The notes under the pieces are model-generated. The model had not been told where the DNA came from, made no database searches, and saw only the letters and a list, made by a program, of their open reading frames with translations. The translations under genes were made by a program, and so were the position numbers. A stretch of 64,000 bases of DNA, taken from assembly GCA_000092065.1 (NCBI GenBank), contig CP000595.1; one strand, written 5' to 3'. This document shows, one piece after another, positions 14,325-64,000 of the stretch (positions are counted from its first letter, which is position 1; every line of letters begins with the position of its first letter). The stretch is from Ostreococcus lucimarinus. Taxonomy: Eukaryota.

Positions 14325-14477
14325 CGAGACGCGCGCTGTGCGCGCGAATGGACGCGACCTTGCGCGGGATCGGGTACAGAAACTTTGCGGTGCGTCCTGG
14401 ATGTGCGATGGCGCGCGCGATGGCTGGGTGTTGATGATACATGAGGGACGCGTCGCGCGGCGCGTGGCGCGCGCGAA

Positions 14478-28080: not shown

Positions 28081-28335
28081 GGCGACGCCGGCGAGTGCGG
28101 AGACGCGAACGCGATCGAACCTCGATCGCGCGCGCGTCGATCGCGTTTGAAATTCAATCGTCACGACGTCGATCGACGATGGACGCGATCGAGGTTCGAT
28201 CGAGATCGAGAGGTCGAGACGCGAGAGCGACGCGACGGAGACGCGAGAGGCGCGCGAGGCGCGCGCGGGAAGGGCGGGATTTCACTGGTGTTACAGGGAT
28301 GATGGGTTCGGTGATGATCGTCGCCGGCGAATCGA

Positions 28336-46961: not shown

Positions 46962-49844
46962 TTATACGGGCGTACCGCCCCGATCTCGATCTCGATCTCG
47001 ATCTCGATCTCGATCTCGATCCGCGGACTCGCGCGTGAAGCCGTCTCGACCGTTCTCGTTTGGGCAATACTTTGCCACGCCGTCGTCCGAGATGGGCACG
47101 ACAGATTGTTCGCCGGCGTCGTAACTGATCGACGGCGACCACACGAGCTGGATGGTTTCGCCGACGTTCTCGAAGGAGTGAATCCAACCGCACGGCATGA
47201 ATAAAATGTCGCCCGCCTCGACGACGGCGCCGAAGCCGCGCGAACGCGCGATTTTGGGTTGTTTGTCCAAGTCGACGTTGAAGGCGTTCCCCAGATAGAC
47301 GGGATTGTACAACTCTTCACCGCCGACGCGCGCGGAGAGCGGGTAGAGGTTTTCCTCATCGGCGCGATCCCAGACGACGGCGCGTTTCGAGCCTTGAACC
47401 ACTAAAACCATCACGTGAGCCGGTTTGGCGTGATGATGCGCGTGATACGCTCGAACGCCATCGCCACTGGCGAAGAGCATAAACTTTTTGAACTCCGTAG
47501 GTCGCTCGCGAAAGAGTATCTTGGAGATATACGACCAGTCTCCGCGCAATTTCGTTTCGACAGCTGCTTTGACGCGTTCGGCGAGTGCCGGACATTGTTC
47601 AATAATGTGCCACGAGTGTACGCTCGGTGGCCATAAATTATCCGCTGGGTGTAAAAAGTCCACGCCGCGTTTTCTGGCTATTTTGGATTCCCCCATCAAC
47701 TCACTATCGAAAAAATCTCTCAGTGTTTTAATCTTTCCTTTGCCTTCGAGAAAATCCAACGTTTCATTCAGCGTCAAACCTCGTGTCGTTTCGAGACGTT
47801 CGGAAAGATCTCGCAAAAGTTTTTGATGCGTCGTTTTCGTCATAGACTGGAACAATGGCACTATTTTCGACCCCAAGTCGGCGAATGCATCGCCGCATAA
47901 ATCTAAAATGAGCTCTCGCGTCACGACGCTTCGTAGCACAGTTGCAAGGTTAGCGTTTTCGATCACCACTGGTTGCCCTTCCTTGACGTATTTCCGCTCG
48001 AACGCGTCAATTGATAGTGTAGATGCGTCAACGCGCTCGATGTTGTTCCACTGAAAACTCGGATCGCTCGACGACAGCAGCAGCGGTATATCATCATGTT
48101 GCGGCGCCTCGACCGTCGGCGCGCGTTTGTTTCGTTGATGATCCTCAACTCTTTCGCCACGACCGAGGTTGGCTTGATCATCTTGAATTCGAACTAAAGA
48201 CTCTAGGAAAGACGTAACACTTTGGGCATCGTTCGGTCCGATGAAACTCTGTGCGATCGCATTCAACTCCTTATGATTTCGCACATACGGCCCAAAGTGT
48301 GACGTTTTCATCTCGCGTCTGGCTTTTAGTGACTCTTCCACGGGCCACGGACAATTTAATGGATCGCAACACGGCGCATTAATGTCATACTGACTTTCTG
48401 CTTGAAGCAAAGTAGTCTTAAGCGCACCCTCAAAGCCGTAACGATTCAATAAAGTCGCGCGATCTTTCAGAAAGGCGACATCTTCTTCGGCGATGCTGTA
48501 CTTTTCCATCAACTCCTCTATTGTTGCGTCAGTGACTTCCGCCAAAAACGCGCTAAACGTGGAAGGAAACGTGCGGTGAATGGCACCCCCCTCCACCCAA
48601 CATCTGTAATCTAAGATAGCTCCGATAGTCGGTGACCAGTTTCCGTTTTCAAGCTCCACGATGCACGCCGGTTTAGTTTCGTTGGCAGACTTTGCGTGGC
48701 ACCTTTCCATCCACGGCAAAGTTTTTTCTTTCTCATAGATCACATAACCTGCAACATAGTGCCAGTGATGGCGCGTCCCGGGAATGCTCACTGTGCTGGT
48801 TTCGTCCTCACGTTTCAACATGTCCTCGTTGTCTATCAGCATCAACGACCCTTTGGCTTCGTCGATGAAGATGTTGAATATATTTCTGTCGTGGTTACCA
48901 AGGAGGAAGTCCATCAGAGTCATCCCTATGACGTCCTCTCGCTTAAGTCGCGATACAACGAGAAAAAGTTCTTTCGTCATCATGTTCTGGCCTGGTCTGG
49001 CACCATTGATATCAGTTGGCGCGATTCCCTTTGCCCAGTCTGTGACGAGAACGTGAGTGTTTTGCTTTCCACCAAGAGAACGTGTGTCGCGTGGCGTGAA
49101 AAACTTCAAAGTCTTTGCCTCCGTAGGCGACACAAGTCGCCCGAACCCCATTGTTTCGATCAATCGATGGATGGCTGATATCCTTTCCGGGGATCGATCA
49201 CGCTGACTGTGGAAACCGCCACACGTTTCGTCAACCGGCGTCGCGTTTGCGTGTTGACGAAATTGTCCACGAATACCGCACCAAGCCTTGACGCTCACCT
49301 TTTTCCCTTCGCTCGTAACTCCTCGCAACACCATTGCCTCAGATTTGCCGACATACCTCCCTGGATTTCCCGCGTCGATGCGCTCAACTTTGACGTCGCA
49401 GTCGCAGCGCTCGCACCACCCACGCGAGTCGACGACGTCGTCTTCGCCCAGCTCGGAATGAGGCACGCATGTGGAGCAAGACGAACACGTCTCAAAGCTC
49501 GCGCGTGTACGCTTGTGATTTGTGTCTGCCCCGCGTTCATCGTCACTATCTTTCCGCACGTCGGCGTCGGCGTAATCAGCGTCAGCGACACCATCGGCGA
49601 GTTTCAGCGCTCTAACAGCAATCGTCTCGCGACGCGGCGACGTCCTCGTGAGTGCGACGGTGAGCACGCACACGAACGCGATAGAATAACACGGTGGTTT
49701 CCACCGCGCGGGCCTTCGACGCCTCTTCGTGGCGTGATGCCACATCGGAGGCGCGGAGTGACGTCGGGACGGCGACAAGCGAGAAGGCGTCGTAGAACGC
49801 ATGGGAACTAAAGCGACGCGTGCGTAACGAATGCGCTGCTTCAA
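46962..49844 (-). CDS. JmjC (cupin) domain protein with an N-terminal kinase-like domain and C-terminal (DR)6 tail
   Basis: C-terminal JmjC fold (HAHHHA..., ILFMPCGWIHSFENVG). The N-half contains a catalytic-loop-like LLGNHDRNIFNIF...LIDNE segment of uncertain family. The last codons are translated from a (GATCTC)n microsatellite. Confidence 0.65.
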   Translation of the reverse strand: MKQRIRYARVALVPMRSTTPSRLSPSRRHSAPPMWHHATKRRRRPARWKPPCYSIAFVCVLTVALTRTSPRRETIAVRALKLADGVADADYADADVRKDSDDERGADTNHKRTRASFETCSSCSTCVPHSELGEDDVVDSRGWCERCDCDVKVERIDAGNPGRYVGKSEAMVLRGVTSEGKKVSVKAWCGIRGQFRQHANATPVDETCGGFHSQRDRSPERISAIHRLIETMGFGRLVSPTEAKTLKFFTPRDTRSLGGKQNTHVLVTDWAKGIAPTDINGARPGQNMMTKELFLVVSRLKREDVIGMTLMDFLLGNHDRNIFNIFIDEAKGSLMLIDNEDMLKREDETSTVSIPGTRHHWHYVAGYVIYEKEKTLPWMERCHAKSANETKPACIVELENGNWSPTIGAILDYRCWVEGGAIHRTFPSTFSAFLAEVTDATIEELMEKYSIAEEDVAFLKDRATLLNRYGFEGALKTTLLQAESQYDINAPCCDPLNCPWPVEESLKARREMKTSHFGPYVRNHKELNAIAQSFIGPNDAQSVTSFLESLVRIQDDQANLGRGERVEDHQRNKRAPTVEAPQHDDIPLLLSSSDPSFQWNNIERVDASTLSIDAFERKYVKEGQPVVIENANLATVLRSVVTRELILDLCGDAFADLGSKIVPLFQSMTKTTHQKLLRDLSERLETTRGLTLNETLDFLEGKGKIKTLRDFFDSELMGESKIARKRGVDFLHPADNLWPPSVHSWHIIEQCPALAERVKAAVETKLRGDWSYISKILFRERPTEFKKFMLFASGDGVRAYHAHHHAKPAHVMVLVVQGSKRAVVWDRADEENLYPLSARVGGEELYNPVYLGNAFNVDLDKQPKIARSRGFGAVVEAGDILFMPCGWIHSFENVGETIQLVWSPSISYDAGEQSVVPISDDGVAKYCPNENGRDGFTRESADRDRDRDRDRDRDRGGTPV
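46982..47020. repeat. (GATCTC)6.5 hexanucleotide microsatellite, coding for the (DR)6 C-terminal tail of the JmjC protein
   Basis: Read directly from the sequence. It lies within the final 20 codons of ORF 46962..49844. Confidence 0.9.
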
Positions 49845-49879
49845 TCACGATAAGTCTATCTATTGATTATTGCTTAATA

Positions 49880-52800
49880 CTATTTTGGGGATTCCCGCGA
49901 GTTCGTGGAGTGCGCGGTGAGATGGCGCTCGTCCAAGGCGATTAAACGTTCGCCGCGTCGGTGTGTTCGAGCTTTCCAGCGCTCACGTAAATCTTGCAAC
50001 TGTGAGCTCAAAGCGCCGTGTTGCTGGCGAATAGTAATCGTAGAGTCAGCCTTGATCGTTTCAAGTAAATCGTCGTCGGCGAAAGGAAGACGTTGACCAG
50101 TCATGCTTCGAAGTTGGATGCGTTCGCTTTCCTTTGCCATTTTCTCTTGATGAATGATCTCTTCGTCTCTCTTGGCGTCGAATTCGTCGACAATCGCCTC
50201 TTCAAATTCCAAGTCGCGAATAGCGCGCTTGATGAGGCCTTCTTCGCCCTCTTCGCGGAACTGGCGAACCAACGTTCGGGCAAAATCATACCATGCCCAT
50301 GCGTGCAGGATGAACAACAAGGCCGTGATGAGATCGACAAAAGTCGAGCCTTGTCCACCTTGTTCGCCTGATTGTTTGAAAATCAGTCCGCCGGTGAATG
50401 TTGCCATAGTAGCAAGTAAGCCATGTGTCTCGATCTTTGCGTACTTTTCGCCGGCATACGGTTTTGCGACGATGTGGAATACAAAGAAAAGTTGCAACAT
50501 ACAATTCACCGTGTATCCACCAATGACTGCACTTCGTCTAGATACGATCACTATGAAGATCAGGATGAATTTTCTCGCGAATATGACCCATTCCCACCAC
50601 CACGCGGACTTGACATTGATTCCCTTGAAGAGCAAACCGAGACGATATTGCACCATTGCTGAATCGTGCTCGCCGACAATGTCTTCTCCGCGAGCGAGCT
50701 GCAGCAAACCGTATGGAATACCGACGATATACAGTATAGCCCAAACGATGACCATAAACAAGTAAAGTGAGTAGGCGGTGCCCCGGCATTGGACCGAATA
50801 GTCGGATACAAAGTGTCGATCGCTGTCGCCAGACGTACCAGTGCACTGCGTGAACTCAGCCAAATATTGAACAAGGGTGGGATAGAGAAGCCACAGAGTC
50901 GCGACGAGCCATGATATTACTATGTCGTAAGCTCTGATGTTTCGCACTTCTTCAAGACCGACATCGTGCTTGTTCACTTTATTCGTGTTACCACTATCGA
51001 TGGCGTTTGTTTCTTCATCTTCAGCAGAATCATTTGCCTTTGTCTTCTTCGTGGCTTCCACTCTAGCTTGGGCCGTTGCCTCTCTCAACTCTTCGACGTA
51101 CTTGATAACCGTGAAGATGATGAACAAGAATATCATCAAGCCTAGTGGGAGCAACTCGTGAAACAGTAGATTTCCGTAAAACTTCCAGCCAATGGCGCAC
51201 TTTGCTGACGCCGACCGTATGTCAGGTAACGAAAGCTTCTCGGCGATAAGTAAGAATGCTTTCATCGAATCCGGCCATGCGAGGTCTAAATTTTTCGCCA
51301 ACGCTGTCATTTGTAAATAGGTGACAAACGATTTTATCATGCCGACGACTTGTGAACTTCGGCGTTGATTGACAACCCGAATGAGCCACACCAGCAACAA
51401 TATCCAGAGAAAGTTGACGACGACGATCGGAAAGTTGAGCACTCGATATGCTCCTGCCGAACAATCGTAACATTTTGGTGGATATGCTTCTCGAATGGCG
51501 TGGTACGCATAACCATTCGCACAAGCTGCGCACATAGCACCAGTGTACCCTGCATCAAGACATGTGCTGTTTACGCCGCCTAGGCACGCGTCAGGGTACG
51601 GACACGCGCGAAATTTCAGCGTTTGTCGGTCAAATCTACTGAAACCAGGAAGCGCTTCGACATTTTCGAGCTCATCACCGTAACATTTTGCACCTTTCGG
51701 GCATGCCATACATTTGTAATCATCGAGTGGGAGTTGTCGATAATAGCTCTCGAATGGGACACTCGTTTGAGAGATGCAGTGGCAGGAACTCTTGCTCACG
51801 TGACCAAGGGCGCCTAAAAGTTGCACTCCTGACTGTGCTTGATATGTTTGCCTCAATCTGCCGTCAACTCGCGAAGTATCCATGGAGATTGGGCACGACG
51901 TGCATGCTCCGTCACCGTGCGCCACTTTGTAGAAGCCATTCTTGCACGGCACACACATGCCATACGGGTGAAGAGCATCGAGCCATCGAGATGACCCAGA
52001 TGTAGCTGTCTTATATAGAGTTATATTCGTTTCGACATAAATGGTATCGATATCTTCAGTATATCCCGTGCCTCCACTAATGTCGGCGGTGAAGCCAGGA
52101 ATGCACTCGCACACGCCAGAGCGAAGCACGCTGTTCGGTTTGACTGTTGAGCAATTCATGACCGTCGTTGGAGTTGAAGGTACGATACTCACATTCAACG
52201 TTGAAGCCGAAAAATTCAGCTCATAGGCATTCGCGCGCTCACCGATGATTGTGATTGAATCGAATTTCGCCAAGCCGTTCACCATCGCCGCCTCTGTCCC
52301 TGAAATGCTCGCCACAGCGGGCGATACACTGACCGTAAGCGTCGTATTGATATCGACGCACACGTTTCCTACAGAATCGATCGCCGCGATGACTGGTGCA
52401 GGCGAAAGTGCGAAGTCATTTTCGTTTATGAAGGGAGGTGCCGTGACGACGGCCAACGCTGTCGGCGCGCCAGGGACTACGGTGAACTCCAACATGTCAG
52501 TCTCCAGCACAGGATAGAGCGCACCAGGACATCGACTTGAGCCACATGATGAAGCGAATCGCAAGCGATAGGTCCCAGCTAATGCATTTTGAATATGCAG
52601 ACCGACATTATAGTGTGTGTCGGGCGCAATACCACTATACCCAGCCTCCCTGCAATATGATGGTGCGGGGTTGGTGTACACCACTCTGTACGTGTAAGCA
52701 CCAGTCGTGGGATTACTGGAGACCACAGTCCTCGGGCTAGAGTCAAGTGAATCTTTGCACCATCCCACTCCACCATTTACTGCGAGAAGAGATCCATCCC

Positions 52801-55800
52801 ATTCGGCTTGCAAGGTTGGTAGCACACTTGCCCGTGGTTGATCCTCCGCTGGCACGAAAGAAAATAGCTCAACCGTGATGTTACGCGCTTCGGTGTCCCA
52901 CATCGAGCCCACATGATAACCGCCAGGATCAGTCATTTGCACGACAAAGTCACGAAGATCCAGGGTTTGCGCTGCGATATATTGTGCAGGATCCCGACAC
53001 AAACCTCGGTCGACACGTGTGAACGAGTTACCGGTGCACGTGTCAAGCGCCGCTGGGTACCCAGCGCTGTAAGTCAGTTGTGTGGAGACCGAATCGAGAC
53101 CCGCTGTAGAAAACGTCAATGAGTACGTTCCGGTGCACGGTCGATAGAATACGATATCATCAAACACCGCTGTGCCCGCAACGATAGTCTGAGGTGTGTA
53201 TGATACATTCGTCTCAAAGTTGCAAGCGCTCACGACCACGCGCTCCGCCTTTACAGAAACTTCGTAATTTAGGTTGAGCGCATTCAAGCCTGCATCGACC
53301 ACACGAATCTGAATCATACTCAATTTTACTTTTTTTGCCGTGGAATACGCAGTCTGCAACGCGATTGCTGCACCGCTGGCAGGTGACGTGAAAGTCTGAA
53401 CAATTAATCCACCATTAATATTTTGCATGAAAAAGAAAAAATAAGTAAGCCTTACCGGTGAGATGAAAAGCGCACTTGCAGTGCCAATCGTAATCGTAAA
53501 TGTACGAGTCGCGGGCGCAACGCTGAGCCCTAACGCGGTACAATTGTCGCAGTTGAAAGAAATCACATAATCCCCGATCTGTAATTAATTGTGTGTGAGG
53601 ATGAAAGTTCTAATGAAATCTGTCATCAATGGGAGCGTACCTCTGGGGCATTGATCACTGTGTCACGAAGTAGTGTACTGTCGGTTCCCGCCGCTATGAC
53701 GCCATTTCTCCCGCTCGTCGCAAACGTATGCCTACATTTTGAATAAAATTAATTAATTCCGGTTATGAATTAATTAGAATCGAAACGTACCTTTGACCCA
53801 CGATACTGGCGATAATACTGTACTCGTGAGTGTTAAGCGACCCGAAACGATTACCTGCGTCATCTGCGATCGCAATTTCGAAAGGGCCGAGGGTTGTTGA
53901 TGCCGTCGCCGGGTATGATCCTTGTGGTGAATTTGCCACGACCAGTTTAGCTGGATCTCCTAACGCCACTGTTACCGCATAAGTCGCAACGGCCTTGCCG
54001 TTGAGATAAAATACGATATCGTGCTGCTGCGCAGTCGGCGCGAGCAGCACGAGGTTCTTAAACTCAACGACGCCGGGTGTGCCGCCCTGTGTATTTAAAT
54101 AAGTTAATTAATTGTTCTCCGTGAAATAAATAATTCATCGCGTTCGAGCATAGTTGACTCACCTGAGTTGCACACGTCGTAGTGCTACCACACGATATCG
54201 CAAAAGTTTCCCCTCCTATCAAGGGATTAATTCCCTGTGGATAAGCCGCCAATTCGGCGGTTTGGCAGACAACAAATATTTGTGCCCCGGTCGGCGAAGC
54301 CGAAATAAAATTCCCTCCGCCATCGTAAAGTCGCCCAACTAGAGGACTAGAAGCGTTCGCAATCGATGTTTCTAGCTTAGATTTGAATGTTCCACTACCT
54401 TGTGTTTCGTCGAGGATCAATTGTGCCGCATTTCCCAAAGTCACGGAAAAGTAGTACTGTGCACCCAGCAGACCCGGCGAGTGGATGTCGACGGCGTACG
54501 TACCGATGTACGGCTTGGCGATGTGTAGTCCATCAAAATAGCTTCCACCAGACTCAGTGTTGGCTTCAAAAGTCGCCACTGATGTACATGATACTCCATG
54601 CAGTGTCGACGATGTACTGGCAAGCCCAGCACATTCGCATGCGTTGCCTTCACCAGTTCTTCTGCACAAGGTGACATTTTGCGGCGATAAGTGCACACGT
54701 CTGCTAGGACATGTCTCGCAAGCTTTCGTTTCAAGATCATCGACGGGATTGAAAGCTCCGTCGAGAATAGTCACCACGACTGGGTACATTGCAACGTCCG
54801 ACGCGGCGCGATATTGATGACAAGTGCAGTTGACATTAGTTTGGCACGCTCCGTCGACTGTGGCGCAGTACGGCAGTAAGCCGAGGTGATTGGATCGCCC
54901 TGCCGTGATCTCTAAATCCACGCTTGCAGACCTCAAACTCGAATCGGACGACACGAAAGTCAAATTGTACGTTCCTTTCTGCGGCTTGACGAGATGCAAA
55001 CCTGAGAACGTCGCAGTCCCAGCGCTCGAAGTGGTTTCCACAAGAGAGCCGGTCCTCGGGTACAGTGAAGTATCTGTGTATACAGTAAGTACCGACGTTC
55101 TTGCGATTGTTGTCGCATTTGCACCGAGTATGAACGGATGAATTTCGACGTTTGTGTCATTCATCATCGCCGTCAACGTAACTCCGTTCGGCAAAGTCCC
55201 CGTCGGCGACTCATTTCCCGCCCCATCCACCGGTACGACGACGAAGTCATCCAGAGGCACAGAGTGCCCGGCTGAGTATGCTGTTGCCTCGGATAGTTGG
55301 ATGCTTTCAGTGAATGATGGTGAAAATTCTAAGACTTTGGGGCTGGTGACCTTGAATCCGCTCACGGCTCCAATCAAAACGCTCACCGTGAGAACTGTAC
55401 TTTGTAGCTTTCCCACGCGCAACTCGCCACTCACTTCAGCGCCAGTCTCAATGACATTAAGGGTGTGCGTACCGACTTTCGGTGAATTTGCAATCAAACC
55501 CGTGAAAGAAACTTGACCGTTGCCATTCGTGAACATCGCAGTCGTTCCAGAAAGTTTCAAAGTTTCGCAAGTCACTTGAATGGTACGATTTGGCGCTACT
55601 GCATCCGTGGTTGAGTGACGATCCGCGGTTCCCATTGAATTGCCGAGCATATCTTGAACGTATACCGTGAACGAACCCAATCCTACAGATTGATCAGCTG
55701 TTACCGATGATAATATCGATTGACTCGAAGCTAGTTCATATCCAGCATCTCCAGCTAGCACATTCACCACTTGGAGAACGGGTGTTAAATCGCCAGACGA

Positions 55801-58800
55801 GAATGTCAATCCGAACTCCCCGACGACAGGTCCGACTACTTTGAGATCAGAAAATCGCCATACACCGCTGTCGTCTCGTTTTACTTGCAAAGTACCATCC
55901 AAAGTGATACCAGCCGATGCATGTACGGTCACAGTACGCGGCGTAATTTCCGCCGCACCGACAAAGTTATTCCCCCCGTCGTATGCGCCAATGATAATTT
56001 CACCTACGGATTGCTTGGGTGCCTCGGCGTAAACTGTTCTCTTACTATACGTCCCATTTATACGAAGGTAAGACGGTTCGCCGATCTCCATTTGCATAAT
56101 TGAATGCGCGCGATATCGAACTCCATTCAACGTCGTCGTAAACTGAACAATGTACTTTGAAGCCTCGCCAAAGTCTCCTCGTGTGGCATCGCTATACGTG
56201 ATATCGTCCGTGGATCCTACAGCTCGTGAACCAGAAGGTGGCATAGCGACAAGTCTGAGATCTGAAAATGATACTCGACCATCATTAGTCGTCTTGTTCA
56301 GCGTTCCAGTGAGCTGGGCTCCGATACTTCTCTCTCTGTAGTCTTCGTTGCTGTTGAGTGTACCCGTCACGAGTGACGCTTGTACGGTGACGTCATCAAG
56401 AGATAGCGTCTGAAGCATACTTCCACCGATGTCAACGATGTCGACTGTCAAATGTCCGATCGATACGTTTCGGGCCGCGTCGAGCACGACGACATCTGTT
56501 GGAAATAACGTAGCACTTGATATCATAGAATTCTCCGTCGCCGCGCCGGGTGTCACCTTCAAACCACCGCTCGAACCTGGTGTTACGGATAAATAGGCGT
56601 GTGCAAGTACACCAAGGTCATCACTACATGCACCATCATCATTGGTACAATCGGTTGCGGTAAAAGTGATCACGTATTCCCCAGCGGTTGGTATCGAGGA
56701 TAGCTGTGGAGTGAATGTTGCGATGCCGTCCGAAGTCTGCACTGATGACGTTGCCTCGGTGATAGCGACCTCTGACGGCCCAGAAATACTCGCCGAAATT
56801 GTGTAACCTTTCGTACCTCCTTGACCACGGTCATAGTTGATTTCAGTTCCATCGATATCCACAAGTCCAACCTTGAACGTTCCAAGTGAGAAATCTGTCG
56901 CGGCAACTCGAGCTTGATGCGAATCCGGTCCACTCAAGAGCTTAACTCCAACTGGTGGTCCATGAAGCTTCAAAATCCCTCCACTAACGTAATCAATACC
57001 GTTCAGTGCAACTGCGACCTGCGCATCTTGCGGTTGTCCGTTCGTAAGCCATGGAAGCGGACTCCCAACTGGATTGGCGCACCTTCCATTGACTACATTG
57101 CACACAGGACACTTGATTTCTGACGAACTAACGAACACCGCACTGGTCACACTCGTCGTGTTATCGTTGAACTTACATTTTAAATCGGGCGAATTCAGAA
57201 ACGGACCTCCGAGTATGCGAAGCAGTACTGGCGCGAGATCGGCATCCTCGCCTGTGAGAAGAACCTTGGCGTCATCTGAACCAATCTTTGTACTAATTAT
57301 GACGGCTGGATCGTGATAACGTAGATATATCTGACCAGAGTTCCACAGCGAGTTGGTCCAAATGCTTGTTGGATCGCTCGAATCGGTTGGTAATCCATCG
57401 AACGATATTTGGACTTCGCTATAACCTATAGTGGAGGAGTTTGAATTTGACGCCGACGGTGCCATGCATGAGAGCTCTGTCGCCGAAACATAAGTTGCTG
57501 GCGACCAAGATGTCTTCGAAAACCCATTATTAGCGTCATAAGTGTGTCCAAACCTACATGAAATCGAATGACTCATTCCACTGGCAAGGGTAGGCGAATA
57601 AAAGCCAGATCCATGAATTTTTATCGGCGTTCCAGACGTGAGCGCGCTGATGTGAGTCGGCTCGATCCCCGAAACGATCACCGTGGAGTACTTTGTGTAC
57701 GTCGTACTCGCCGCAGAACTCACCGCGAACACGCTGCGCTCGCCCGGTACGGCGCTGATGCCACCGATGGTGTGGCTTTCTTCAAATGTCCCCACACGCT
57801 TGAAACAACCGCTTATACAAGCACTAGACGTGTCCGTACCCCCTATTTCGATCTTGACGATCCGACTCTTACCGCTTTCACGCGATCCCACGGCCCAGTA
57901 CATGAAATCTTTTTCTCCTGCCGTCGCTCCGGTTTGAACGGTAGCGCTCAGAGCATCACGCTCTCCGAGCGCTGCGTCAAGAGCAATCACGGCGAGTGGA
58001 CTATCGCCTTCAGCAAAATTCAAGTCAAACATGAAGATGCATGCCGCGCGATTTTTACACCCCGGACAGTCGCCGTCTCGACCTGAAGTGCCCACGTATC
58101 CATAGCCGTTGTGCTTTGTGATCGCAGTAAACGTCGAAAAGCGTCCTTGCTTTGAATCGAGCTGCCCTTCGCACGCCTCGAGCACCTTGACGTTTGTTGA
58201 GTCCAAATACATTTCAACCCCATCGCCGTCACGAGTCCCTGAGTTTGTATTCACCTTGAACAAAGTAGGATAAAAGGTTTTGCCATCGGAGTCATCCAAG
58301 AGGGCAGATCCAGCGAAGATGACATAGTTGACACCTGTTTGAGTATGCGCCACACTCGTCTCCAACCTCATGGCGTCCGGGGCAAGCGAACATGTGGGGC
58401 ATTTAGTGCTCAGTAAACCCGGAGCTAAGAAGTTTATTCCTTTATCGTTCAAACTGCCGTCGACGTGACCAATGACGCTTCGCGACAGACCGTCTTCGTG
58501 CGTGGCCTTGTACACTATCATGCCGTTGGCTGGGTCTGTGCCCATGGCATCCAAAATGTACTGCTCTTTTGAGAAAGTCGCACTCGCCTGACCATTTGTC
58601 AATGAACTGAGAACGCAGTTCGCCCACTGCGATGAATCTGATGAGCATGTAGTACCGACATACTTGAAAAGCGAAAATCTAAACTGATTTGCCGTGGTCT
58701 GATGCCACATGTTCACTGGCACGACGACGCCCGTCAGCGCTGTCGACAAATCGGCAGCCATTTTAGCGTACACTCCGTACCAACCGCGCGACTTCTGAGG

Positions 58801-59379
58801 ATCCACATGTCCATATGCTCTCGGATGCTTCGCTGCGCACCCGCTCGAGATCCCAATACCGCAAAAATTTGGCAAAGGTGTTATCGACAATGGCACCGCG
58901 CCCGTTGTCTCTCGTCTCGGTCCGTTCGTTTGTCCCCAACCTCTCGCCGTCACTGCGTTTGAGGTAAAAGTCTCCGGATACCTCGGATCGACTTCGATCA
59001 CTCGCGTTCCATTAGCATCTTGCGCGTAGACGTAAATTACGTTCTTTCGCGTGTCTACCATGACGTCTTCGACGTACTTTTCGTCGTACGCCGTCCCGGC
59101 GGTGTCGTACTCGTACCCCGCCGTCCCATCCAAGCGCGACTCTTTCACCACCGATGGCGTGGGAACATCGCACGCAAGTCCTGCCCATCCTGCCTCGCAC
59201 GCGCACACGCCGTCTAAGCCGCATCGCCCCTGTCCAGCGCTCGCCGAGCACCCGCGCTCGCAACGATTGAACGTCAAGCCTTGACATGAGTGCGCCAACG
59301 ACGCGATGACGACGACGAGCGCGACGGTGACGAGCGCTCTGAACCCTCGGCGCGAGCTTGTACGACCGTTACCACCCAT
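49880..59379 (-). CDS. Giant (about 3080 aa) surface-receptor-like protein: signal peptide, EGF-like module, multiple IPT/TIG and Ig-like beta-sandwich repeats, Cys-rich furin/ephrin-receptor-like modules, polytopic (7-8 TM) domain, cytoplasmic coiled-coil tail. Five exons: complement(join(49880..53395,53456..53578,53641..53731,53791..54086,54163..59379))
   Basis: ORFs 54064..59634, 53763..54050 and 49880..53566 join in frame through four short AT-rich GT..AG introns (54087..54162, 53732..53790, 53579..53640, 53396..53455) with consensus donors (CAG|GTGAGT, AAG|GTACGT, GAG|GTACGC, CCG|GTAAGG). TIG-like repeats (e.g. VIVSGIEPTHISALTSGTPIKIHGSGF...SCRFG), the N-terminal EGF module (CQGLTFNRCERGCSASAGQGRCGLDGVCACEAGWAGLACD) and the C-terminal TM cluster are read directly from translation. 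Start is taken at Met 59379 (signal peptide); the ORF opens at 59634. Confidence 0.65.
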
Positions 59380-59920
59380 CGTCGCGCGGCGAGCGGCGCT
59401 TGAAGTCGCGCGTTCCCGCACGCTCACCCCGCGTCCCGCGCGATGGCCGCGGCTTCCGACTTCACGAGACGATGCGACGCGCGCTCGAGCGCGTCGTCGG
59501 CGCGAGCGGCATGGACGACGAAGCGAATGAGCGCTGAGACGAAGTTTGTGTGTTATACACGCACCGCTCGGCGTCGACGCGGTGGAGTGACGCGGCGACG
59601 CGTTGACGCGAGACTCGACCACCAACGACTCCAAGCGACGAATGGAATCGTCGCGGCCGCCTCGGCGACGCGGTCGTTGGTTCGTTTGTGAGTTTATTTT
59701 CGTTTCAACGAGTTTTTACGCTTTGAAGAGTAATAATGGACTATTATTTTAGATATTGAAAAAGGAAAGTTGCAAACCCCAAGTCATGTCGCGAATCGCC
59801 CGTCTCGGCGCCCAAAGGCGCTTTGAGACGACGAGGTCGAAGACGCTAAACGTGCGATTTTGAGACGACCGCTCGATCGCGTGCGACGAATTTGAGTGAA
59901 ACTTTGAAATAATTTGAAAT

Positions 59921-60835
59921 TCACGCCTCAAGTGACGCTTGAGAGAGGTTTCTATACATTTCCAGAGATTTAACGGGATGGTACAGCGCGTCGCGGCGAA
60001 TCGGCGCAAGTCTGGGTACCGCGTCAAAGTCAAAGGCCGGACGCCAGCGCATGTAAGCTACGTCGGGACCCAAATCACGGAACGAGAATGTGTCGGAATT
60101 CACCGTGAGGAAAGTTGGTAGGAATGCCTCGTGATGTCCGCTGCTTCTGGTAGAAGTGGAGAGGTGCGCCACCGCGGCGGCGGCAAAGTTTCGCGAGATC
60201 CGAAACGCGGGCAACAAGGCACTTTGCTTGCACCAATTCGGAAGGCCTCGACAGTACGTGCAAGATGGCCAGTGATTCCATGCCGTCTTGTTTGAGTACC
60301 GAAATGTTGTGTTGAAAGCGATGAGATCACTCGAATCTGATTCGTATTTCTCAAAAAGCGTTTGCCACGAGCCGGTGAAAACCACGTCGGGCTCGATGAT
60401 CCAGCCGAAGTCGATCCACGCTTGATCTGGCTGCGTGAGCCATCTCAAGGCTCTTGGCTTCACTGAAGCACCGTATATTCCTGAGAACAACTCGAACGAA
60501 TGACTTCCGTAACGCAATCGTTCCACCTCCCGAGAGGCTTGCACGACTGTCGCGTCGTCGGCAGTTGACGTGTTGAACCAAGGGCGAAACTTGCCTTCAT
60601 AAACCAACACTTGGGCAGAGATTCGTGCAGAGCGAGTGTTCGAGAAAACCGTGTCGCGAGCGAGGCGGTGCAGATCGTCTAGTTTCCTGTCGTTACCAAC
60701 CGTCAGAATTACGACTGTGTGTACGCTACTTTTTGTTTCTGGAAGGGGGTAGAGAAAGGCGAAGAGAAACGAACCACACACGAGCACAAGGAGCAGCCAA
60801 CGCTTAGTCAGTTCACGAGCCCGGCGCTTGCGCAT
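59921..60835 (-). CDS. Type II membrane protein, putative Golgi glycosyltransferase-like (family unassigned)
   Basis: N-terminal basic stretch plus signal anchor (KRWLLLVLVCGSFLFAFLY) and a roughly 270-aa lumenal globular domain. Intermediate GC. The family is not recognisable with confidence. Confidence 0.45.
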   Translation of the reverse strand: MRKRRARELTKRWLLLVLVCGSFLFAFLYPLPETKSSVHTVVILTVGNDRKLDDLHRLARDTVFSNTRSARISAQVLVYEGKFRPWFNTSTADDATVVQASREVERLRYGSHSFELFSGIYGASVKPRALRWLTQPDQAWIDFGWIIEPDVVFTGSWQTLFEKYESDSSDLIAFNTTFRYSNKTAWNHWPSCTYCRGLPNWCKQSALLPAFRISRNFAAAAVAHLSTSTRSSGHHEAFLPTFLTVNSDTFSFRDLGPDVAYMRWRPAFDFDAVPRLAPIRRDALYHPVKSLEMYRNLSQASLEA

Positions 60836-61013
60836 CTAAACGCACAGATTCAATAATCGACGCGGAGTTTTTTGTTTACATCAGCGTGCGCGCGCAGAGG
60901 TGCCGTTTTAGAAGTGCCGAGGCTCGAGGGCGCGTCGCGTCGCGTCGCGTCGTATCGCGTCGTGTACCGCGCATTCTACGTTTTCTATTTCACACATTCC
61001 CTTCTAAGTTATC

Positions 61014-63326
61014 TTAATCGAGCGCCAATGGAATATCCCCTTCTTGCAACAATCTTCCAATCTGTGCCATCCGATCCCTGTTTGCCTTCTTCTCCGTGGC
61101 CATATCTAAGAGTAAGCTTCGCATCTCGTGCTCGACGTCGTCGACTCGCTCGTACGCTTCGCGCACGATGGCATCGCTTTCCTCTCTGATGGCGATTGCC
61201 CGCGTCTCATACATACTGGCCTTATCCCTCGCGATCGCCAGTTGTTCACTCAGCTCCTCCAATTGGTGCTGCAATTCTTTACTCTTCGCTTTTTCGATAC
61301 TATCACTCGTCTCCAGAGTCTGCGTCAACCGCTTGATCTGGGATTCCATGTGAACAATTATGCGGTCGCGTTCAGCCACGGCATTATTTGCTTTGCTGAT
61401 CGCGTGCTCATACGATGCGTGATCGACCTCGGAGTCCGCGAGAGCATTTTCTAGCTCTGTGATGTTCATTTCCATCGACTCTACCTGTTGGACCAAAGAT
61501 CGACACTCTTCCGACATCGCATTCATCCTTGCTTCCGCCTCCACCATTCTCGCGTCGTGCGTCCTCAACGATTCCGCTTTTTGTTCGCGTAATCGAACAG
61601 CTTCATCCTTCAGAGACTTAATGAGCTGATTCTGGTGCTGAAGCATATCGTTCTTGATCTTTGTGCTCTCATCTGCTGATTCGAGCTTCAATTGAAGAGC
61701 CTCGACGTCCCGGATGAGTCGCTCGGCGAGCTCTTCTCGCTCGCGAGCCTTCTCTTCTCGCGCCGCGGCGGACCTCTCAGCCTTCAACGCCGCGACTTTG
61801 GCGCTCTTGATCGTCGCATGCGTGCTTTCCCTATCTATCACCGCCCCACGGGCGCGCTCGAGCTCTTCTTCCATGAGAACAACCATCTCACGCGTCTTGG
61901 CGTAACCTTCGAGTTGATCGCGTTGACTTTCCACCACTTGCGCCAATTCCTCGTTGAGTGTCTCAGCCTCGGCGCGTTCGGCACACGCGACTCGAAGTAA
62001 TTCTCGCATCTCACTGAGACCCGCTTCTTGGGCAGCAATTTTCTCGTTACTCGCGATCGCGGCTTCTTCGTGCGCATGCTGTTCGCGTTCCATCGACGAA
62101 ATACGCTCCTTCAAGCGCGCGTTCTCCTCGATGGCTTGCGCGTACACCGTCGATTCCTTACGAGCTTCGTTCACGCGATCGTTTAGCAACGCGTTTTGCT
62201 CGTCCATGTACATGGCTTTCAGATTTGCGAGATTCTCCGCAGATTCCGTCCTGACTTCTTGCAATATCGTCTCCAACTCACTGACTCGCAGTTGTGCTGC
62301 TTCCTCGTTTCTCGACGCGCGCTCGATGGCTTGCGAGGCTTTGGTCAACTCTCGGCGGAGAGTTTCGACTTCTTCACGAAGGCGGCGCTCGCTCGCGTCG
62401 TCGATCGTCACGTTAGACATCGCACTCTTCTGCGTCTCTACGTCTTTCATCAAAGGTGCCTCCGTTTGACTCGACTCTTCCCGAACGCGCCTGACGACTT
62501 GCTGATCAAAATCGATGGCTCGCTTCGCCGCATCCCCGTTGACCTGCACGCCGCGCGATTTGACGCTCTCATCGGCGGCTTGGAAGGCTGTTTGTCGTTT
62601 TTCACCCGAACGGTCCCCGCGTTGAGGCGTTCTCGAAAACTGCTCTGCGTGGGGAGGCGTCATGCTGCTTCGTCCGGGAGCCGTCGTCGCAGACGCGTCG
62701 AGAGTCTTTGTCATCGCCTTTGTGCACGTTTCGACGCTTAAAACCACACCATCTAGGTGCGTGAGCCAAGGAACGAGCGATGCCATCGTAATTCTATATG
62801 ACGGCACATCGCACATCCCGTTCGTTTCTTTCCCGATCACCGATCCTTCTTCCATTTTCAACCGAAGCGATTCCAAGCGCGTCAACTCGCTGAGCGCTCG
62901 CGCGGCTTGGAAACTTTCCAACGCGTTCCCTCGCGCGTCGAGCGCGCGAATGCCCCACTCCGCCCCGTCACTCCTCGCAAACCCACTCAAAGACTTGATT
63001 TTATTATTGGAAATGTTCACTCGCTCCAGCGTCGTCGACGCTCGTTCGAATCCCCTCGTCGACTCGAGCGCGTTGCTCGCCAGATTCAGCGTTCGCAGGC
63101 GAGTCAACTTTTCCAACCCTCTCGCCTCCGCGATGGCGTTCGACGACAGATCGAGTTCTTCCAACCGCGTCAACACCGCGAACGCTTCGCAATCCATGCT
63201 CGTTATCTCGCACGCGTGCGCTCGCAGCGCGCGTAAATTTACGAATCTCTCCAGCGATTCGATCCGCTCCGGCGTCCCGAGCGCCGTCCCGTACGTCGCC
63301 AGCTCTCGCACGTCCTCATCCGCCAT
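61014..63326 (-). CDS. Leucine-rich-repeat plus long coiled-coil protein (LRRCC1/centriolin-like; flagellar/basal-body-type architecture)
   Basis: SDS22-type LRRs (LEELDLSSNAIAEARGLEKLTRLRTLNLASNALES...) followed by about 550 aa of uninterrupted heptad coiled coil. The ORF extends to 63620; Met 63326 (MADEDVRELATYG) is the likelier start. Confidence 0.65.
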   Translation of the reverse strand: MADEDVRELATYGTALGTPERIESLERFVNLRALRAHACEITSMDCEAFAVLTRLEELDLSSNAIAEARGLEKLTRLRTLNLASNALESTRGFERASTTLERVNISNNKIKSLSGFARSDGAEWGIRALDARGNALESFQAARALSELTRLESLRLKMEEGSVIGKETNGMCDVPSYRITMASLVPWLTHLDGVVLSVETCTKAMTKTLDASATTAPGRSSMTPPHAEQFSRTPQRGDRSGEKRQTAFQAADESVKSRGVQVNGDAAKRAIDFDQQVVRRVREESSQTEAPLMKDVETQKSAMSNVTIDDASERRLREEVETLRRELTKASQAIERASRNEEAAQLRVSELETILQEVRTESAENLANLKAMYMDEQNALLNDRVNEARKESTVYAQAIEENARLKERISSMEREQHAHEEAAIASNEKIAAQEAGLSEMRELLRVACAERAEAETLNEELAQVVESQRDQLEGYAKTREMVVLMEEELERARGAVIDRESTHATIKSAKVAALKAERSAAAREEKAREREELAERLIRDVEALQLKLESADESTKIKNDMLQHQNQLIKSLKDEAVRLREQKAESLRTHDARMVEAEARMNAMSEECRSLVQQVESMEMNITELENALADSEVDHASYEHAISKANNAVAERDRIIVHMESQIKRLTQTLETSDSIEKAKSKELQHQLEELSEQLAIARDKASMYETRAIAIREESDAIVREAYERVDDVEHEMRSLLLDMATEKKANRDRMAQIGRLLQEGDIPLALD

Positions 63327-63818
63327 CGTCGTCGACGGTCTCAGATCGATCGTCCCTCGACCTCCCGCACCGCGCGCGCCCGCGTCTTCTACCTCGCGCC
63401 CCGTCGTCCCTTCCCCCTCCCGCGCGCGCGTCCGCGTCCCGTCCCGCCCCTCGCGCGCGCGTCCCGATAACGAGGCGTCGTCGTCGCCATCGCTCGCGTC
63501 GTCGCCATCGCTCCCTCGGTCCTTCGCCCGCGTCCCGACCGCGACCGCGACCGCGCGCGCGGAGTCCTCTCGATCGAGCGTCGCGCCCTCGCTCGCGCGC
63601 GCCTCCCGCGCGCGCTCCATGCGCGCCGGCGCCCGAGCCGTCGCGAAGTCGCGGTCGACGGACAGACATCGCGCGCCGGAGACGCCGGGCGCGTGCCTTG
63701 ATTTTCCGGGTGTGCGGACCCCTCGCGTCGACGGGTCGCGACCCGCGACGGGGGTTCACGGCGCGCGATCGATCGAGATCCGCGAAAAAGGCGACGCTCG
63801 GCGACGCTTGGCATGGCG

Positions 63819-63874
63819 CGTCCGAACGTCCGAACGTCCGAACGTCCGAACGTCCGAACGTCCGAACGTCCGAA
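63819..63874. repeat. (CGTCCGAA)7 octanucleotide microsatellite upstream of the LRR/coiled-coil gene
   Basis: Read directly from the sequence; an additional partial copy lies at about 63893..63908. Confidence 0.9.
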
Positions 63875-64000
63875 CGTCCGAACGTCGACGCGCGCGCGTC
63901 CGAACGTCGACGCGCGCGCGGCGCGATGCGGGCGCGACGGGCGGCGACGGCGGCGACGACGCGATCGAGGGCGAGACGAGACGAGGACGGACGACGCCTC

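What the first reader, a model, noticed from the sequence alone, without database searches (positions are those of the whole stretch)
49850..60850. Low-GC island of about 11 kb carrying a giant receptor-like gene
The window is otherwise uniformly GC-rich (about 65-67%). Between about 49.85 and 60.85 kb composition drops to roughly 50-54% GC. The drop coincides exactly with two genes: a roughly 3080-aa EGF/TIG-repeat polytopic surface protein and a type II membrane glycosyltransferase-like protein. Intron style changes as well (see the separate finding on the mini-intron cluster). In Mamiellophyceae, low-GC outlier regions are known, but as chromosome-scale domains enriched in surface-glycan and rapidly evolving genes. 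A kilobase-scale island with the same hallmarks inside normal-GC sequence is unusual. It could be a transferred or relocated fragment of an outlier region, a recent acquisition, or a locally hypermutable surface-antigen locus.
Basis: partly seen in the sequence, partly recalled or inferred. Interest (0 to 1): 0.8.

Follow-up and report, generated by a model that had tools for sequence, protein, structure and literature searches.

The report
Ancient low-GC pocket around giant gene
A 15-kb stretch of unusually AT-rich DNA on an ordinary chromosome of the tiny marine alga Ostreococcus lucimarinus is real. It is an old, conserved property of a giant surface-receptor gene and its neighbours, not a recent import or a fast-mutating locus.

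Summary
The window is Ostreococcus lucimarinus CCE9901, on a 468-kb chromosome. That size fits neither outlier chromosome.

The GC drop is real: 0.511 over 49,850-60,850. The background, however, is 0.61 and patchy, not a uniform 65-67%. Segmentation places the low-GC block at about 47.4-62.9 kb, so it covers four genes, not two.

The giant gene model (3080 aa, five exons) holds. Its four 59-76-nt introns have 24-37% GC and look like big-outlier-chromosome (BOC1) introns, unlike the canonical-type intron candidates in the flanks.

The same gene order and the same GC dip occur in O. tauri, two other Ostreococcus lineages and Micromonas pusilla. That excludes recent acquisition of the giant and GT-like genes. 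Six O. lucimarinus metagenome contigs are 99.6-100% identical across the block, which argues against hypervariability.

About half of the GC3 contrast is a generic decline along genes, seen in all genes of the window. The other half is specific to this locus.

Best reading: a long-lived pocket where the GC-raising force, probably recombination-linked biased gene conversion, is weak. The mechanism is inferred, not shown.

One neighbour, a kinase-like/JmjC gene, is a lineage-specific insertion.

The parts
47400..62920 (.). Low-GC segment as defined by likelihood segmentation. GC is 0.512-0.517, against 0.613 to its left and 0.69 to its right.
   Evidence: L001 shows GC back at 0.6-0.75 beyond the right end of the window.
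49880..59379 (-). Giant gene of 3080 aa with five exons: 59379-54163, 54086-53791, 53731-53641, 53578-53456 and 53395-49880. The product has a signal peptide, a weak EGF-like match, a roughly 2500-aa Ig-like/TIG ectodomain, an Ephrin_rec_like/DUF7630 Cys-rich region, 5 or more predicted TM helices and a coiled-coil tail. GC 0.511, GC3 0.52.
   Evidence: The frame-consistent splice model is. Intronless homologues L013 and L015 align straight across all four junctions. Domains are, TM segments, and the family.
54087..54162 (-). Mini-intron 1: 76 nt, GC 0.32, GTGAGT...CAG, carries TTAATTAA.
   Evidence: Its position is conserved in L007 and L011.
53732..53790 (-). Mini-intron 2: 59 nt, GC 0.24, GTACGT...TAG, carries two TTAATTA motifs.
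53579..53640 (-). Mini-intron 3: 62 nt, GC 0.37, GTACGC...CAG, carries TTAATTA.
53396..53455 (-). Mini-intron 4: 60 nt, GC 0.27, GTAAGG...CAG, carries ATTAATT. It is in frame, so it reads through in the raw ORF.
59000..59600 (-). GC-rich 5' end of the giant gene (GC 0.61-0.69), inside the island.
   Evidence: GC3 of the first 100 codons is 0.73, falling to 0.42-0.48 by codons 600-1200.
59921..60835 (-). 304-aa protein with an N-terminal membrane anchor (XP_001421748.1). GC3 0.60.
   Evidence: Exact match. No Pfam or PDB sequence hit. The AF2 model is unusable except for helix 2-28. Orthologues are at 43-52% identity in syntenic position.
46962..49745 (-). Kinase-like plus Cupin_8/JmjC protein with an N-terminal anchor. 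GC 0.53, GC3 0.58. It is a lineage-specific insertion between the giant gene and PsbQ.
   Evidence: Pfam. It has no counterpart in L007, L009 or L011. It is present only in O. lucimarinus-like contigs L016-L026.
61014..63620 (-). LRR/coiled-coil gene. Its 3' two-thirds lie in the low-GC segment, and its GC3 falls from 0.84 to 0.58-0.66 from 5' to 3'.

Best explanation
**What it is.** The island is an old, conserved, gene-centred pocket of low GC on an ordinary chromosome. Its core is the 9.5-kb giant receptor gene and the small membrane-protein gene upstream of it. These have sat together in this syntenic position since before the Ostreococcus species diverged. The giant gene has sat next to PsbQ since before the split from Micromonas.

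**How it most likely arises (inferred).**
- In these algae mutation is biased towards AT, with an equilibrium GC of about 0.36. Genomic GC of about 0.60 is thought to be held up by recombination-linked GC-biased gene conversion (PMC8557840).
- In this window the GC-raising effect is strongest in the first 200 or so codons of every gene and fades along the gene body.
- A 9.5-kb gene body therefore lies mostly beyond its reach.
- On top of that, this locus has a persistently weaker GC-raising force than other long genes.
- As a result codons, amino-acid composition, introns and spacers all sit closer to the AT-rich mutational equilibrium.
- The short AT-rich introns go with the same state.

**What is shown and what is inferred.** Composition, gene model, conservation, synteny, lack of variability and the generic within-gene gradient are shown. 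The recombination/gene-conversion mechanism is inferred.
For: - **Identity and chromosome.** The 304-aa protein is an exact match to O. lucimarinus XP_001421748.1 on a 468,366-bp contig. The SOC is 149 kb (PMC3491373).
- **Composition.**
- **Conservation of the dip.** Giant-gene GC3 is 0.46-0.56 against 0.55-0.77 in flanks in L007, L009 and L011 (L011 = O. tauri, 528-kb chromosome), with the same gene order. In M. pusilla CCMP1545 the orthologue region is 0.48-0.56 GC against 0.62-0.75 in flanks, on an 880-kb scaffold and again beside PsbQ.
- **Generic gradient.** Flank-gene GC3 falls from 0.78-0.79 in the first 200 codons to 0.62-0.69 beyond 300 codons.
- **Locus-specific remainder.** Blocks at least 600 codons from the start average 0.661 in flank genes (n=27) and 0.500 in the giant gene (n=24), Mann-Whitney p = 8e-9.
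- **All site classes shifted.** Mini-introns are 0.30 GC against 0.595 for canonical-type intron candidates. Spacers are 0.52-0.57. GARP residues are 26.7% against 35.6%.
- **No sign of transfer.** There are no tRNAs and no phage or IMG/VR relatives of the two smaller island genes. The giant protein belongs to a widespread eukaryotic family: Thecamonas, Mantamonas, Mesostigma.
Against: - No recombination, expression or methylation data were available, so the mechanism is untested.
- The 304-aa gene is short yet has low GC3 from its first codon (0.58-0.63). Distance from a promoter cannot explain that.
- The 3' end of the giant gene abuts the next gene's start but stays at GC3 of about 0.55.
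- A 3156-aa homologue in a 68%-GC organism (L015) shows no dip: GC3 0.84 against 0.86-0.89. A Bathycoccus-like contig (L027) shows none either. The state is therefore not universal to the gene family.
- The contigs used for the variability test were selected by exact identity of the 304-aa protein, which biases them towards sameness.
Confidence: 0.55

Rival explanations
1. **Ancient escapee from the outlier region.** The giant gene, with or without its neighbour, once lay in the low-GC, intron-rich BOC1 (candidate mating-type) region. It was translocated to a standard chromosome before the Ostreococcus-Micromonas split. It has kept BOC1-type composition and introns because the state is encoded locally, for example by chromatin or methylation.
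For: - The four introns are 59-76 nt with 24-37% GC. The published BOC1 definition is under 75 nt and under 43% GC (PMC3879977).
- Their 5' sites are GTRNG-type, as on chromosome 2, not the GTGCGTG of other chromosomes. None has the ACTGAC branch motif found in 87% of confirmed non-chromosome-2 introns (PMC2483917).
- The GC3 deficit of about 0.2 equals that reported for mating-type genes (PMC8557840).
- Translocations between the mating-type region and autosomes are documented (PMC8557840).
Against: - No lineage examined has the gene in an outlier region. It lies on a 468-kb chromosome in O. lucimarinus, a 528-kb chromosome in O. tauri and an 880-kb scaffold in M. pusilla.
- Composition would be expected to drift to the local norm over that time unless something maintains it. 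That need collapses this rival into the main explanation.
- The M. pusilla orthologue has different, partly canonical introns, one with TAACTGACG.
- Introns cluster in only 770 bp of a 9.5-kb gene.
Confidence: 0.17
2. **Relaxed codon selection.** The island genes are transcribed rarely, or only in a special stage such as sexual or stress stages. Selection for G/C-ending codons, or transcription-linked GC enrichment, is therefore weak, and they drift towards AT.
For: - Low GC3 is gene-specific and conserved across species. This holds for the giant and GT-like genes and also for another weakly conserved gene outside the window (L001 2543-3754; GC3 0.52-0.63 in the orthologues).
- Relatives of the giant protein carry GEX2-type Ig domains known from gamete-attachment proteins (P0120). 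This is a lead only.
Against: - Introns and spacers are also AT-rich (0.30 and 0.52-0.57). Codon selection does not explain that.
- In O. tauri, CDS GC correlates negatively with expression, rho = -0.37 (bioRxiv 10.1101/2025.04.21.649811). That is the opposite direction.
- No expression data for these genes were available.
Confidence: 0.18
3. **Recent horizontal or viral acquisition.** The whole island is a recent horizontal or viral acquisition, or a hypermutable surface-antigen cassette.
For: - Low GC, secretory or surface-type products, and no Pfam family for the 304-aa protein.
- The kinase-like/JmjC gene next door really is lineage-specific.
Against: - Orthologues in syntenic position in four Ostreococcus lineages and in Micromonas.
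- The giant protein belongs to a eukaryote-wide family.
- No viral or phage relatives of the two smaller genes.
- 99.6-100% identity among six population contigs.
- Divergence to a sister lineage is no higher in the island (5.7%) than in the flank (7.6%). The two figures come from separate contigs.
Confidence: 0.04

Closest known systems
BOC1, the low-GC region of the big outlier chromosome (candidate mating-type locus) of Mamiellales
   Same: - GC is about 10 points below the genome and GC3 about 0.2 lower.
- Introns are short, AT-rich and GT-AG, without the canonical GTGCGTG/ACTGAC signals.
- The state is conserved across genera.
- The published explanation for BOC1, loss of recombination-linked GC enrichment, also fits here.
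   Different: - It is 15 kb, not hundreds of kb.
- It lies on a standard 468-kb chromosome.
- Gene order is conserved between species, whereas BOC1 is shuffled.
- It has only four introns, all within 770 bp.
- Its products are surface or secretory proteins, not housekeeping ones.
- Expression and methylation are unknown.
SOC, the small outlier chromosome ('viral immunity chromosome') of Mamiellales
   Same: - Similar GC: 51% here against 53% for O. lucimarinus chromosome 18.
- Predicted membrane, secretory and possibly glycan-modifying products.
- One lineage-specific gene beside the island.
   Different: - No hypervariability, no loss of synteny and no repeats or transposons seen.
- The core genes have orthologues in every Ostreococcus lineage examined. 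SOC genes are mostly species-specific.
5'-to-3' GC3 gradients within genes (grasses and other taxa), commonly attributed to promoter-proximal recombination and biased gene conversion
   Same: All genes in the window show high GC3 in the first 200 or so codons and lower GC3 downstream. The giant gene is the long-gene extreme of this pattern.
   Different: The gradient explains only about half of the contrast. The giant gene levels off at 0.50, not at the 0.66 of other long genes. The short neighbouring gene is low from its first codon.
Giant eukaryotic IPT/TIG + Ephrin_rec_like polytopic 'cell surface receptor' proteins (e.g. Thecamonas trahens P0246; Mantamonas and Mesostigma homologues)
   Same: - A long Ig-like/TIG ectodomain.
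- A Cys-rich Ephrin_rec_like region.
- A multi-pass membrane domain.
- Profile hits span the Cys-rich and TM regions.
   Different: - Only 22% identity.
- In the O. lucimarinus protein itself, TIG is not detected by Pfam and EGF is sub-threshold.
- No member has a known function or a solved structure.

Membership tests
Mamiellales low-GC outlier region (BOC1/SOC) | GC roughly 9-17% below the rest of the genome (PMC8557840) | tested here: met
   GC is 0.512-0.517 against 0.613. GC3 is 0.52 against a mean of 0.734.
Mamiellales low-GC outlier region (BOC1/SOC) | Located on the big or small outlier chromosome, as one contiguous domain of 150 kb or more | tested here: not met
   The segment is about 15 kb on a 468,366-bp contig, with normal-GC flanks on both sides. 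The SOC is 149 kb (PMC3491373).
Mamiellales low-GC outlier region (BOC1/SOC) | BOC1: genes split by many short (under 75 nt), AT-rich (under 43% GC) introns lacking canonical signals | tested here: inconclusive
   There are four such introns (59-76 nt, 24-37% GC, no ACTGAC, GTRNG 5' sites). They occur in only one gene, are clustered in 770 bp, and carry a conserved TTAATTA motif not described for BOC1 introns.
Mamiellales low-GC outlier region (BOC1/SOC) | Loss of colinearity between species (BOC1, SOC) and strain-level hypervariability (SOC) | tested here: not met
   Gene order is conserved across four Ostreococcus lineages. Six population contigs are 99.6-100% identical.
Mamiellales low-GC outlier region (BOC1/SOC) | Elevated expression, hypomethylation and TAD-like insulation | not testable with these tools
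   No transcriptome, methylome or Hi-C data were accessible. The criteria are from bioRxiv 10.1101/2025.04.21.649811.
Horizontally acquired genomic island | Absent from close relatives at the same site | tested here: not met
   The giant and GT-like genes are present in syntenic position in L007, L009 and L011 (O. tauri). The giant gene is also present in M. pusilla. The feature is met only for the kinase-like/JmjC gene.
Horizontally acquired genomic island | Donor-like relatives (virus or bacteria) or mobility marks (tRNA, integrase, repeats) | tested here: not met
   No tRNA. No phage or IMG/VR relatives of the two smaller genes. Only short simple repeats. The full-architecture relatives of the giant protein are eukaryotic.
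IPT/TIG + Ephrin_rec_like polytopic receptor family (giant gene product) | Ig-like/TIG repeats, an Ephrin_rec_like Cys-rich module and a multi-pass TM domain | tested here: met
   The profile search gave 6473 hits, with repeats at profile positions 291-400 and a Cys-rich plus TM block at 470-1050. Ephrin_rec_like scores 22.8 bits against a cut-off of 23.1, and DUF7630 is weak. TIG is recorded on orthologues. Five or more hydrophobic helices were found.
Glycosyltransferase (304-aa protein) | A recognisable GT fold or family match, and a DxD-type motif | tested here: inconclusive
   No Pfam match at E up to 10, except DUF3405 (E = 0.0024) for one orthologue. No PDB sequence match. The AF2 single-sequence model has pLDDT 35.6. 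An invariant E-P-D at residues 148-150 and an N-terminal anchor are compatible with a GT but not diagnostic.

The most novel reading that the evidence does not exclude
Outlier-type genome state (low GC plus short AT-rich non-canonical introns) is not confined to the two outlier chromosomes of Mamiellales. It can exist as a stable, kilobase-scale, gene-centred 'micro-outlier' on a standard chromosome. This one has been kept since before the Ostreococcus-Micromonas split. If so, the state would be set locally, by a recombination cold spot or a chromatin mark tied to this giant receptor gene, rather than by chromosome identity. The locus would then be a compact natural test bed for what creates outlier regions.
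Probability: 0.3. Interest if true: 0.65.

Novelty: new variant of a known kind. Interest (0 to 1): 0.45.

Why it matters
Why Mamiellales keep low-GC outlier regions is an open question. Proposed answers include suppressed recombination at a mating-type locus, viral-immunity hypervariability and chromatin insulation. [quoted passage not shown]

Here is a 15-kb pocket on an ordinary chromosome with the same composition and intron style. It has conserved synteny and no hypervariability. That separates 'low GC plus odd introns' from 'rearranged, hypervariable, mating-type-linked'.

It also runs against statements in the papers read here that BOC1-type introns are restricted to the BOC1 region.

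Practically, it warns that low GC in these genomes is not evidence of gene transfer. It also points to annotation trouble around such genes. In the M. pusilla reference the orthologue contains two assembly gaps, and only a 548-aa C-terminal fragment appears among the gene calls held for that locus.

Tried and rejected
- **Viral or phage origin.** tblastn of the kinase-like/JmjC protein against the phage collection found nothing. That collection probably lacks prasinoviruses. IMG/VR scans with the 304-aa and kinase-like/JmjC proteins found no relatives. These scans find close relatives only.
- **Fold of the 304-aa protein.** The single-sequence AF2 model was unusable, with pLDDT 35.6, so no fold search was run. 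Pfam and PDB profile searches were negative.
- **PDB search for the giant gene.** A profile search with the C-terminal profile found no hit.
- **Reaching more distant orthologues.** The third word-index protein search, using a mixed alignment, did not return the Micromonas or Bathycoccus-like orthologues. They were reached instead through the exhaustive profile search and direct contig look-ups. The longest Micromonas metagenome contig had no DNA available.
- **Pure gene-length explanation.** Rejected as sufficient. Other long-gene interiors in the window level off at GC3 0.66, not 0.50, and the short 304-aa gene is low throughout.
- **Whole scaffold being outlier sequence.** Rejected, on the normal-GC flanks on both sides and the contig size.
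- **Direct comparison with O. lucimarinus chromosome 2 and 18 sequence.** Not possible, because those sequences could not be fetched. Literature values were used instead.
- **Polarised substitution or SFS test for biased gene conversion.** Not attempted. There are too few variants (10-15 per contig) and no suitable outgroup at nucleotide level.
Full report
**1. Source and setting**

The 304-aa ORF at 59,921-60,835 (minus strand) is an exact match to Ostreococcus lucimarinus CCE9901 XP_001421748.1 / ABP00042.1. The longest contig carrying it is 468,366 bp. The small outlier chromosome of this species is 149 kb at 53% GC (PMC3491373, Table 2). The window also has normal-GC sequence on both sides of the feature. 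A Tara metagenome contig (L001) extends 6.9 kb past the right end of the window and returns to 0.6-0.75 GC. The window is therefore on a standard chromosome.

**2. The observation**

| Region | GC | Source |
|---|---|---|
| Whole window | 0.591 | |
| 1-47,300 | 0.614 | |
| 49,850-60,850 | 0.511 | |
| 1-kb bins outside the feature | 0.49-0.74 | |

- The background is not a uniform 65-67%. There are shorter dips at 34-36, 39-41 and 44-45 kb.
- A likelihood segmentation puts the single strongest low-GC segment at 47,400-61,700. Recursive splitting gives 47,470-62,920. GC is 0.512-0.517.
- The block is therefore about 15 kb and covers four co-directional minus-strand genes, not two.
  - The kinase-like/Cupin_8 (JmjC) gene, 46,962-49,844: GC 0.53, GC3 0.58.
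  - The giant gene.
  - The 304-aa gene: GC3 0.60.
  - The 3' two-thirds of an LRR/coiled-coil gene, 61,014-63,620.
- The 5' end of the giant gene (59.0-59.6 kb) is a GC-rich spike of 0.61-0.69 inside the block.
- Against 19 flanking ORFs (GC3 mean 0.734, SD 0.053), the giant gene at 0.52 lies 4.1 SD low.
- The drop is real and far beyond chance.

**3. Gene model and introns**

- Two long ORFs and two short exons join in frame through four GT-AG introns.
- Intronless homologues from other organisms (L013, 2956 aa; L015, 3156 aa) align straight across all four junctions.
- The introns are 76, 59, 62 and 60 nt, with 32, 24, 37 and 27% GC (pooled 0.30). Their 5' sites are GTGAGT, GTACGT, GTACGC and GTAAGG. 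None has an ACTGAC motif.
- Six pattern-defined canonical-type intron candidates in the flanks are 104-211 nt at 0.51-0.70 GC, with GTGCGT...ACTGAC. These are not transcript-verified.
- Published work on this very species found that 87% of confirmed non-chromosome-2 introns contain ACTGAC and use GTGCGTG. Chromosome-2 introns prefer GTRNGT and lack a branch consensus (PMC2483917).
- BOC1 introns are defined as under 75 nt and under 43% GC, and are described as restricted to BOC1 (PMC3879977, PMC3491373).
- By every criterion except location, and 1 nt of length for intron 1, these are BOC1-type introns.

**4. The proteins**

*Giant protein*
- It has a signal peptide and a sub-threshold EGF-like match (E = 0.004-0.06).
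- Its long Ig-like ectodomain gives no Pfam hit here, but TIG is recorded on orthologues.
- It has an Ephrin_rec_like/DUF7630 Cys-rich region, both just under their cut-offs.
- A simple hydropathy scan found at least five strongly hydrophobic helices after residue 2566. A coiled-coil tail follows.
- An exhaustive profile search found 6473 relatives. They include proteins of 2800-6000 aa from Thecamonas ('cell surface receptor IPT/TIG domain-containing protein'), Mantamonas and Mesostigma.
- It is a member of a eukaryote-wide family of giant receptors of unknown function. There is no PDB relative by sequence.

*304-aa protein*
- It has a confident N-terminal helix (residues 2-28) and an invariant E-P-D.
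- It has no Pfam or PDB match, and the single-sequence structure model failed.
- 'Glycosyltransferase-like' is therefore unverified.

**5. Age of the island**

- Orthologous loci were recovered from metagenomes and genomes. L011 is O. tauri: its TIM15 protein is an exact match to XP_003083615.1, on a 528-kb chromosome. L007 and L009 are two further unnamed Ostreococcus lineages.
- All three share the gene order GlcN-isomerase, x, L21e, Zn-ribbon, TPR, LRR/coiled-coil, 304-aa gene, giant gene, PsbQ (not called in L009), zf-DNL, GT25.
- Identity to O. lucimarinus is 56-60% for the giant protein and 43-52% for the 304-aa protein. Neighbours range from 29% to 94%, so the island genes are not outliers in divergence.
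- The GC dip is present in all three lineages. GC3 of the giant gene is 0.46-0.56 and of the 304-aa gene 0.49-0.56, against 0.55-0.77 for flanks.
- The four mini-introns are at the same positions in the two orthologous loci read, L007 and L011.
- In Micromonas pusilla CCMP1545 the orthologue lies on an 880-kb scaffold, again next to PsbQ. Its GC is 0.48-0.56 where the flanks are 0.62-0.75.
- The low-GC state therefore predates the Ostreococcus radiation and very probably the split from Micromonas. Recent acquisition is excluded for the core.
- The state is not universal. A homologue in a 68%-GC organism (L015) has GC3 0.84 against 0.86-0.89. A Bathycoccus-like contig (L027, GC 0.48) shows no visible dip.

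**6. Variability**

- Six O. lucimarinus contigs from independent metagenomes are 99.6-100% identical to the window over about 14 kb. The caveat is that they were retrieved by exact identity of the 304-aa protein.
- A sister lineage is 94.3% identical over 11 kb of the island (L022). A separate contig covering the normal-GC flank is 92.4% identical (L024).
- There is no sign of hypermutation or presence/absence variation in the core.

**7. What explains the low GC**

- The literature treats low GC in these algae as the signature of missing recombination-linked GC-biased gene conversion. Mutation is AT-biased with equilibrium GC 0.36, against 0.60 observed (PMC8557840).
- Two patterns in the window bear on this.
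- *Pattern 1: a gradient in every gene.* GC3 in flank genes is 0.78-0.79 in the first 200 codons and 0.62-0.69 beyond 300 codons. The giant gene starts at 0.73 and falls to 0.37-0.48 around codons 600-1300. Part of the island is thus the long-gene extreme of a general rule.
- *Pattern 2: a locus-specific remainder.* Blocks at least 600 codons from the start average 0.661 in flank genes and 0.500 in the giant gene (p = 8e-9). The short 304-aa gene is low from its first codon. Roughly half of the contrast is therefore specific to this locus.
- All site classes are shifted: introns (0.30), spacers (0.52-0.57) and amino-acid usage (GARP 26.7% against 35.6%). This points to a regional mutational or conversion bias rather than codon selection alone.
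- I therefore favour a persistent local weakness of the GC-raising force. I could not measure recombination, expression or chromatin, so this step is inference.

**8. The neighbour that is new**

- The kinase-like/JmjC gene has no counterpart between the giant gene and PsbQ in O. tauri, L007 or L009.
- It is found only in O. lucimarinus-like contigs. Most are at 99-100% amino-acid identity, and a few more divergent ones at 76-90%.
- One gain in the O. lucimarinus lineage is the most parsimonious reading. Its source is unknown: there was no IMG/VR or phage hit.

**9. Comparison with known systems and novelty**

- The island shares composition and intron style with BOC1, and GC level and product types with the SOC.
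- It fails the defining features of both: chromosome, scale, loss of synteny and hypervariability.
- The papers searched describe outlier regions only at chromosome scale. They mention lower-GC stretches on other chromosomes only in passing (PMC3879977, Fig. 2B). I found no description of this locus or of conserved kilobase-scale pockets.
- I rate it a new variant of a known kind, of moderate interest. It is real, old and informative about what sets outlier-type composition. It is not the recent transfer or antigenic hot spot that would have made it striking.

Noticed in passing
window 53,396-54,162 (the four mini-introns); L007 15,388-16,096; L009 15,252-15,976; L011 15,209-15,734: The palindromic motif TTAATTA(A) occurs in the 64-kb window only inside the four mini-introns (6 hits). 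In three other Ostreococcus lineages it is likewise almost confined to the same region between the two long ORFs of the giant gene. It lies 3-20 nt upstream of the 3' splice site. It is absent from the Micromonas and L015 loci. BOC1 introns are described as having no conserved motif, so this may be a branch-site substitute or a regulatory site.
   Followed up: partly
window 46,962-49,745 (-): A membrane-anchored protein combines a sub-threshold PI3_PI4_kinase-like segment (HDRN motif) with a Cupin_8/JmjC domain. It ends in a (DR)n tail encoded by a CGATCT x6.8 repeat (46,981-47,021). It is inserted between the giant gene and PsbQ only in O. lucimarinus-like lineages.
   Followed up: partly
L014 (M. 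pusilla CCMP1545 GG663748.1, 578,514-600,160): In the reference assembly the orthologue of the giant gene contains two runs of N, about 5 kb and about 90 nt. Only a 548-aa C-terminal fragment (XP_003063477.1) appears among the gene calls held for this locus. The roughly 10 kb upstream, which encodes the rest, has no call listed.
   Followed up: partly
whole window, all long ORFs: There is a general 5'-to-3' fall of GC3 within genes, from 0.78-0.79 in the first 200 codons to 0.62-0.69 beyond 300 codons. Some long genes rise again at the 3' end (9,501-14,477 and 25,354-28,281).
   Followed up: yes
L001 2,543-3,754 (about 67-68 kb on the window's scale, beyond its right end): A second, smaller conserved low-GC gene of 403 aa with no Pfam family. 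GC is 0.52-0.55 in O. lucimarinus. GC3 is 0.52-0.63 in the orthologues, which are only 36-50% identical between lineages. Low GC3 thus seems to be a conserved property of particular genes.
   Followed up: partly
L013 10,001-18,871: A 2956-aa intronless homologue of the giant gene from an unidentified organism of about 59% GC. Its neighbours are different (MOSC, MOZART1, PGM). It also has low GC3, 0.57 against 0.65-0.78 in flanks. Whether it is a paralogue or an orthologue is undetermined.
   Followed up: no
window 63,819-63,908: An 8-nt tandem repeat, CGTCCGAA x11.5, lies just upstream of the LRR/coiled-coil gene in a 70-75% GC stretch.
   Followed up: no
window 43,310-44,683 (+) and 59,921-60,835 (-): Several neighbouring products look like secretory-pathway enzymes or surface proteins. 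They are the 457-aa ORF whose O. tauri orthologue has a weak Glyco_transf_25 hit, the anchored 304-aa protein, the anchored kinase-like/JmjC protein and the giant receptor. This may be a loose functional neighbourhood.
   Followed up: no
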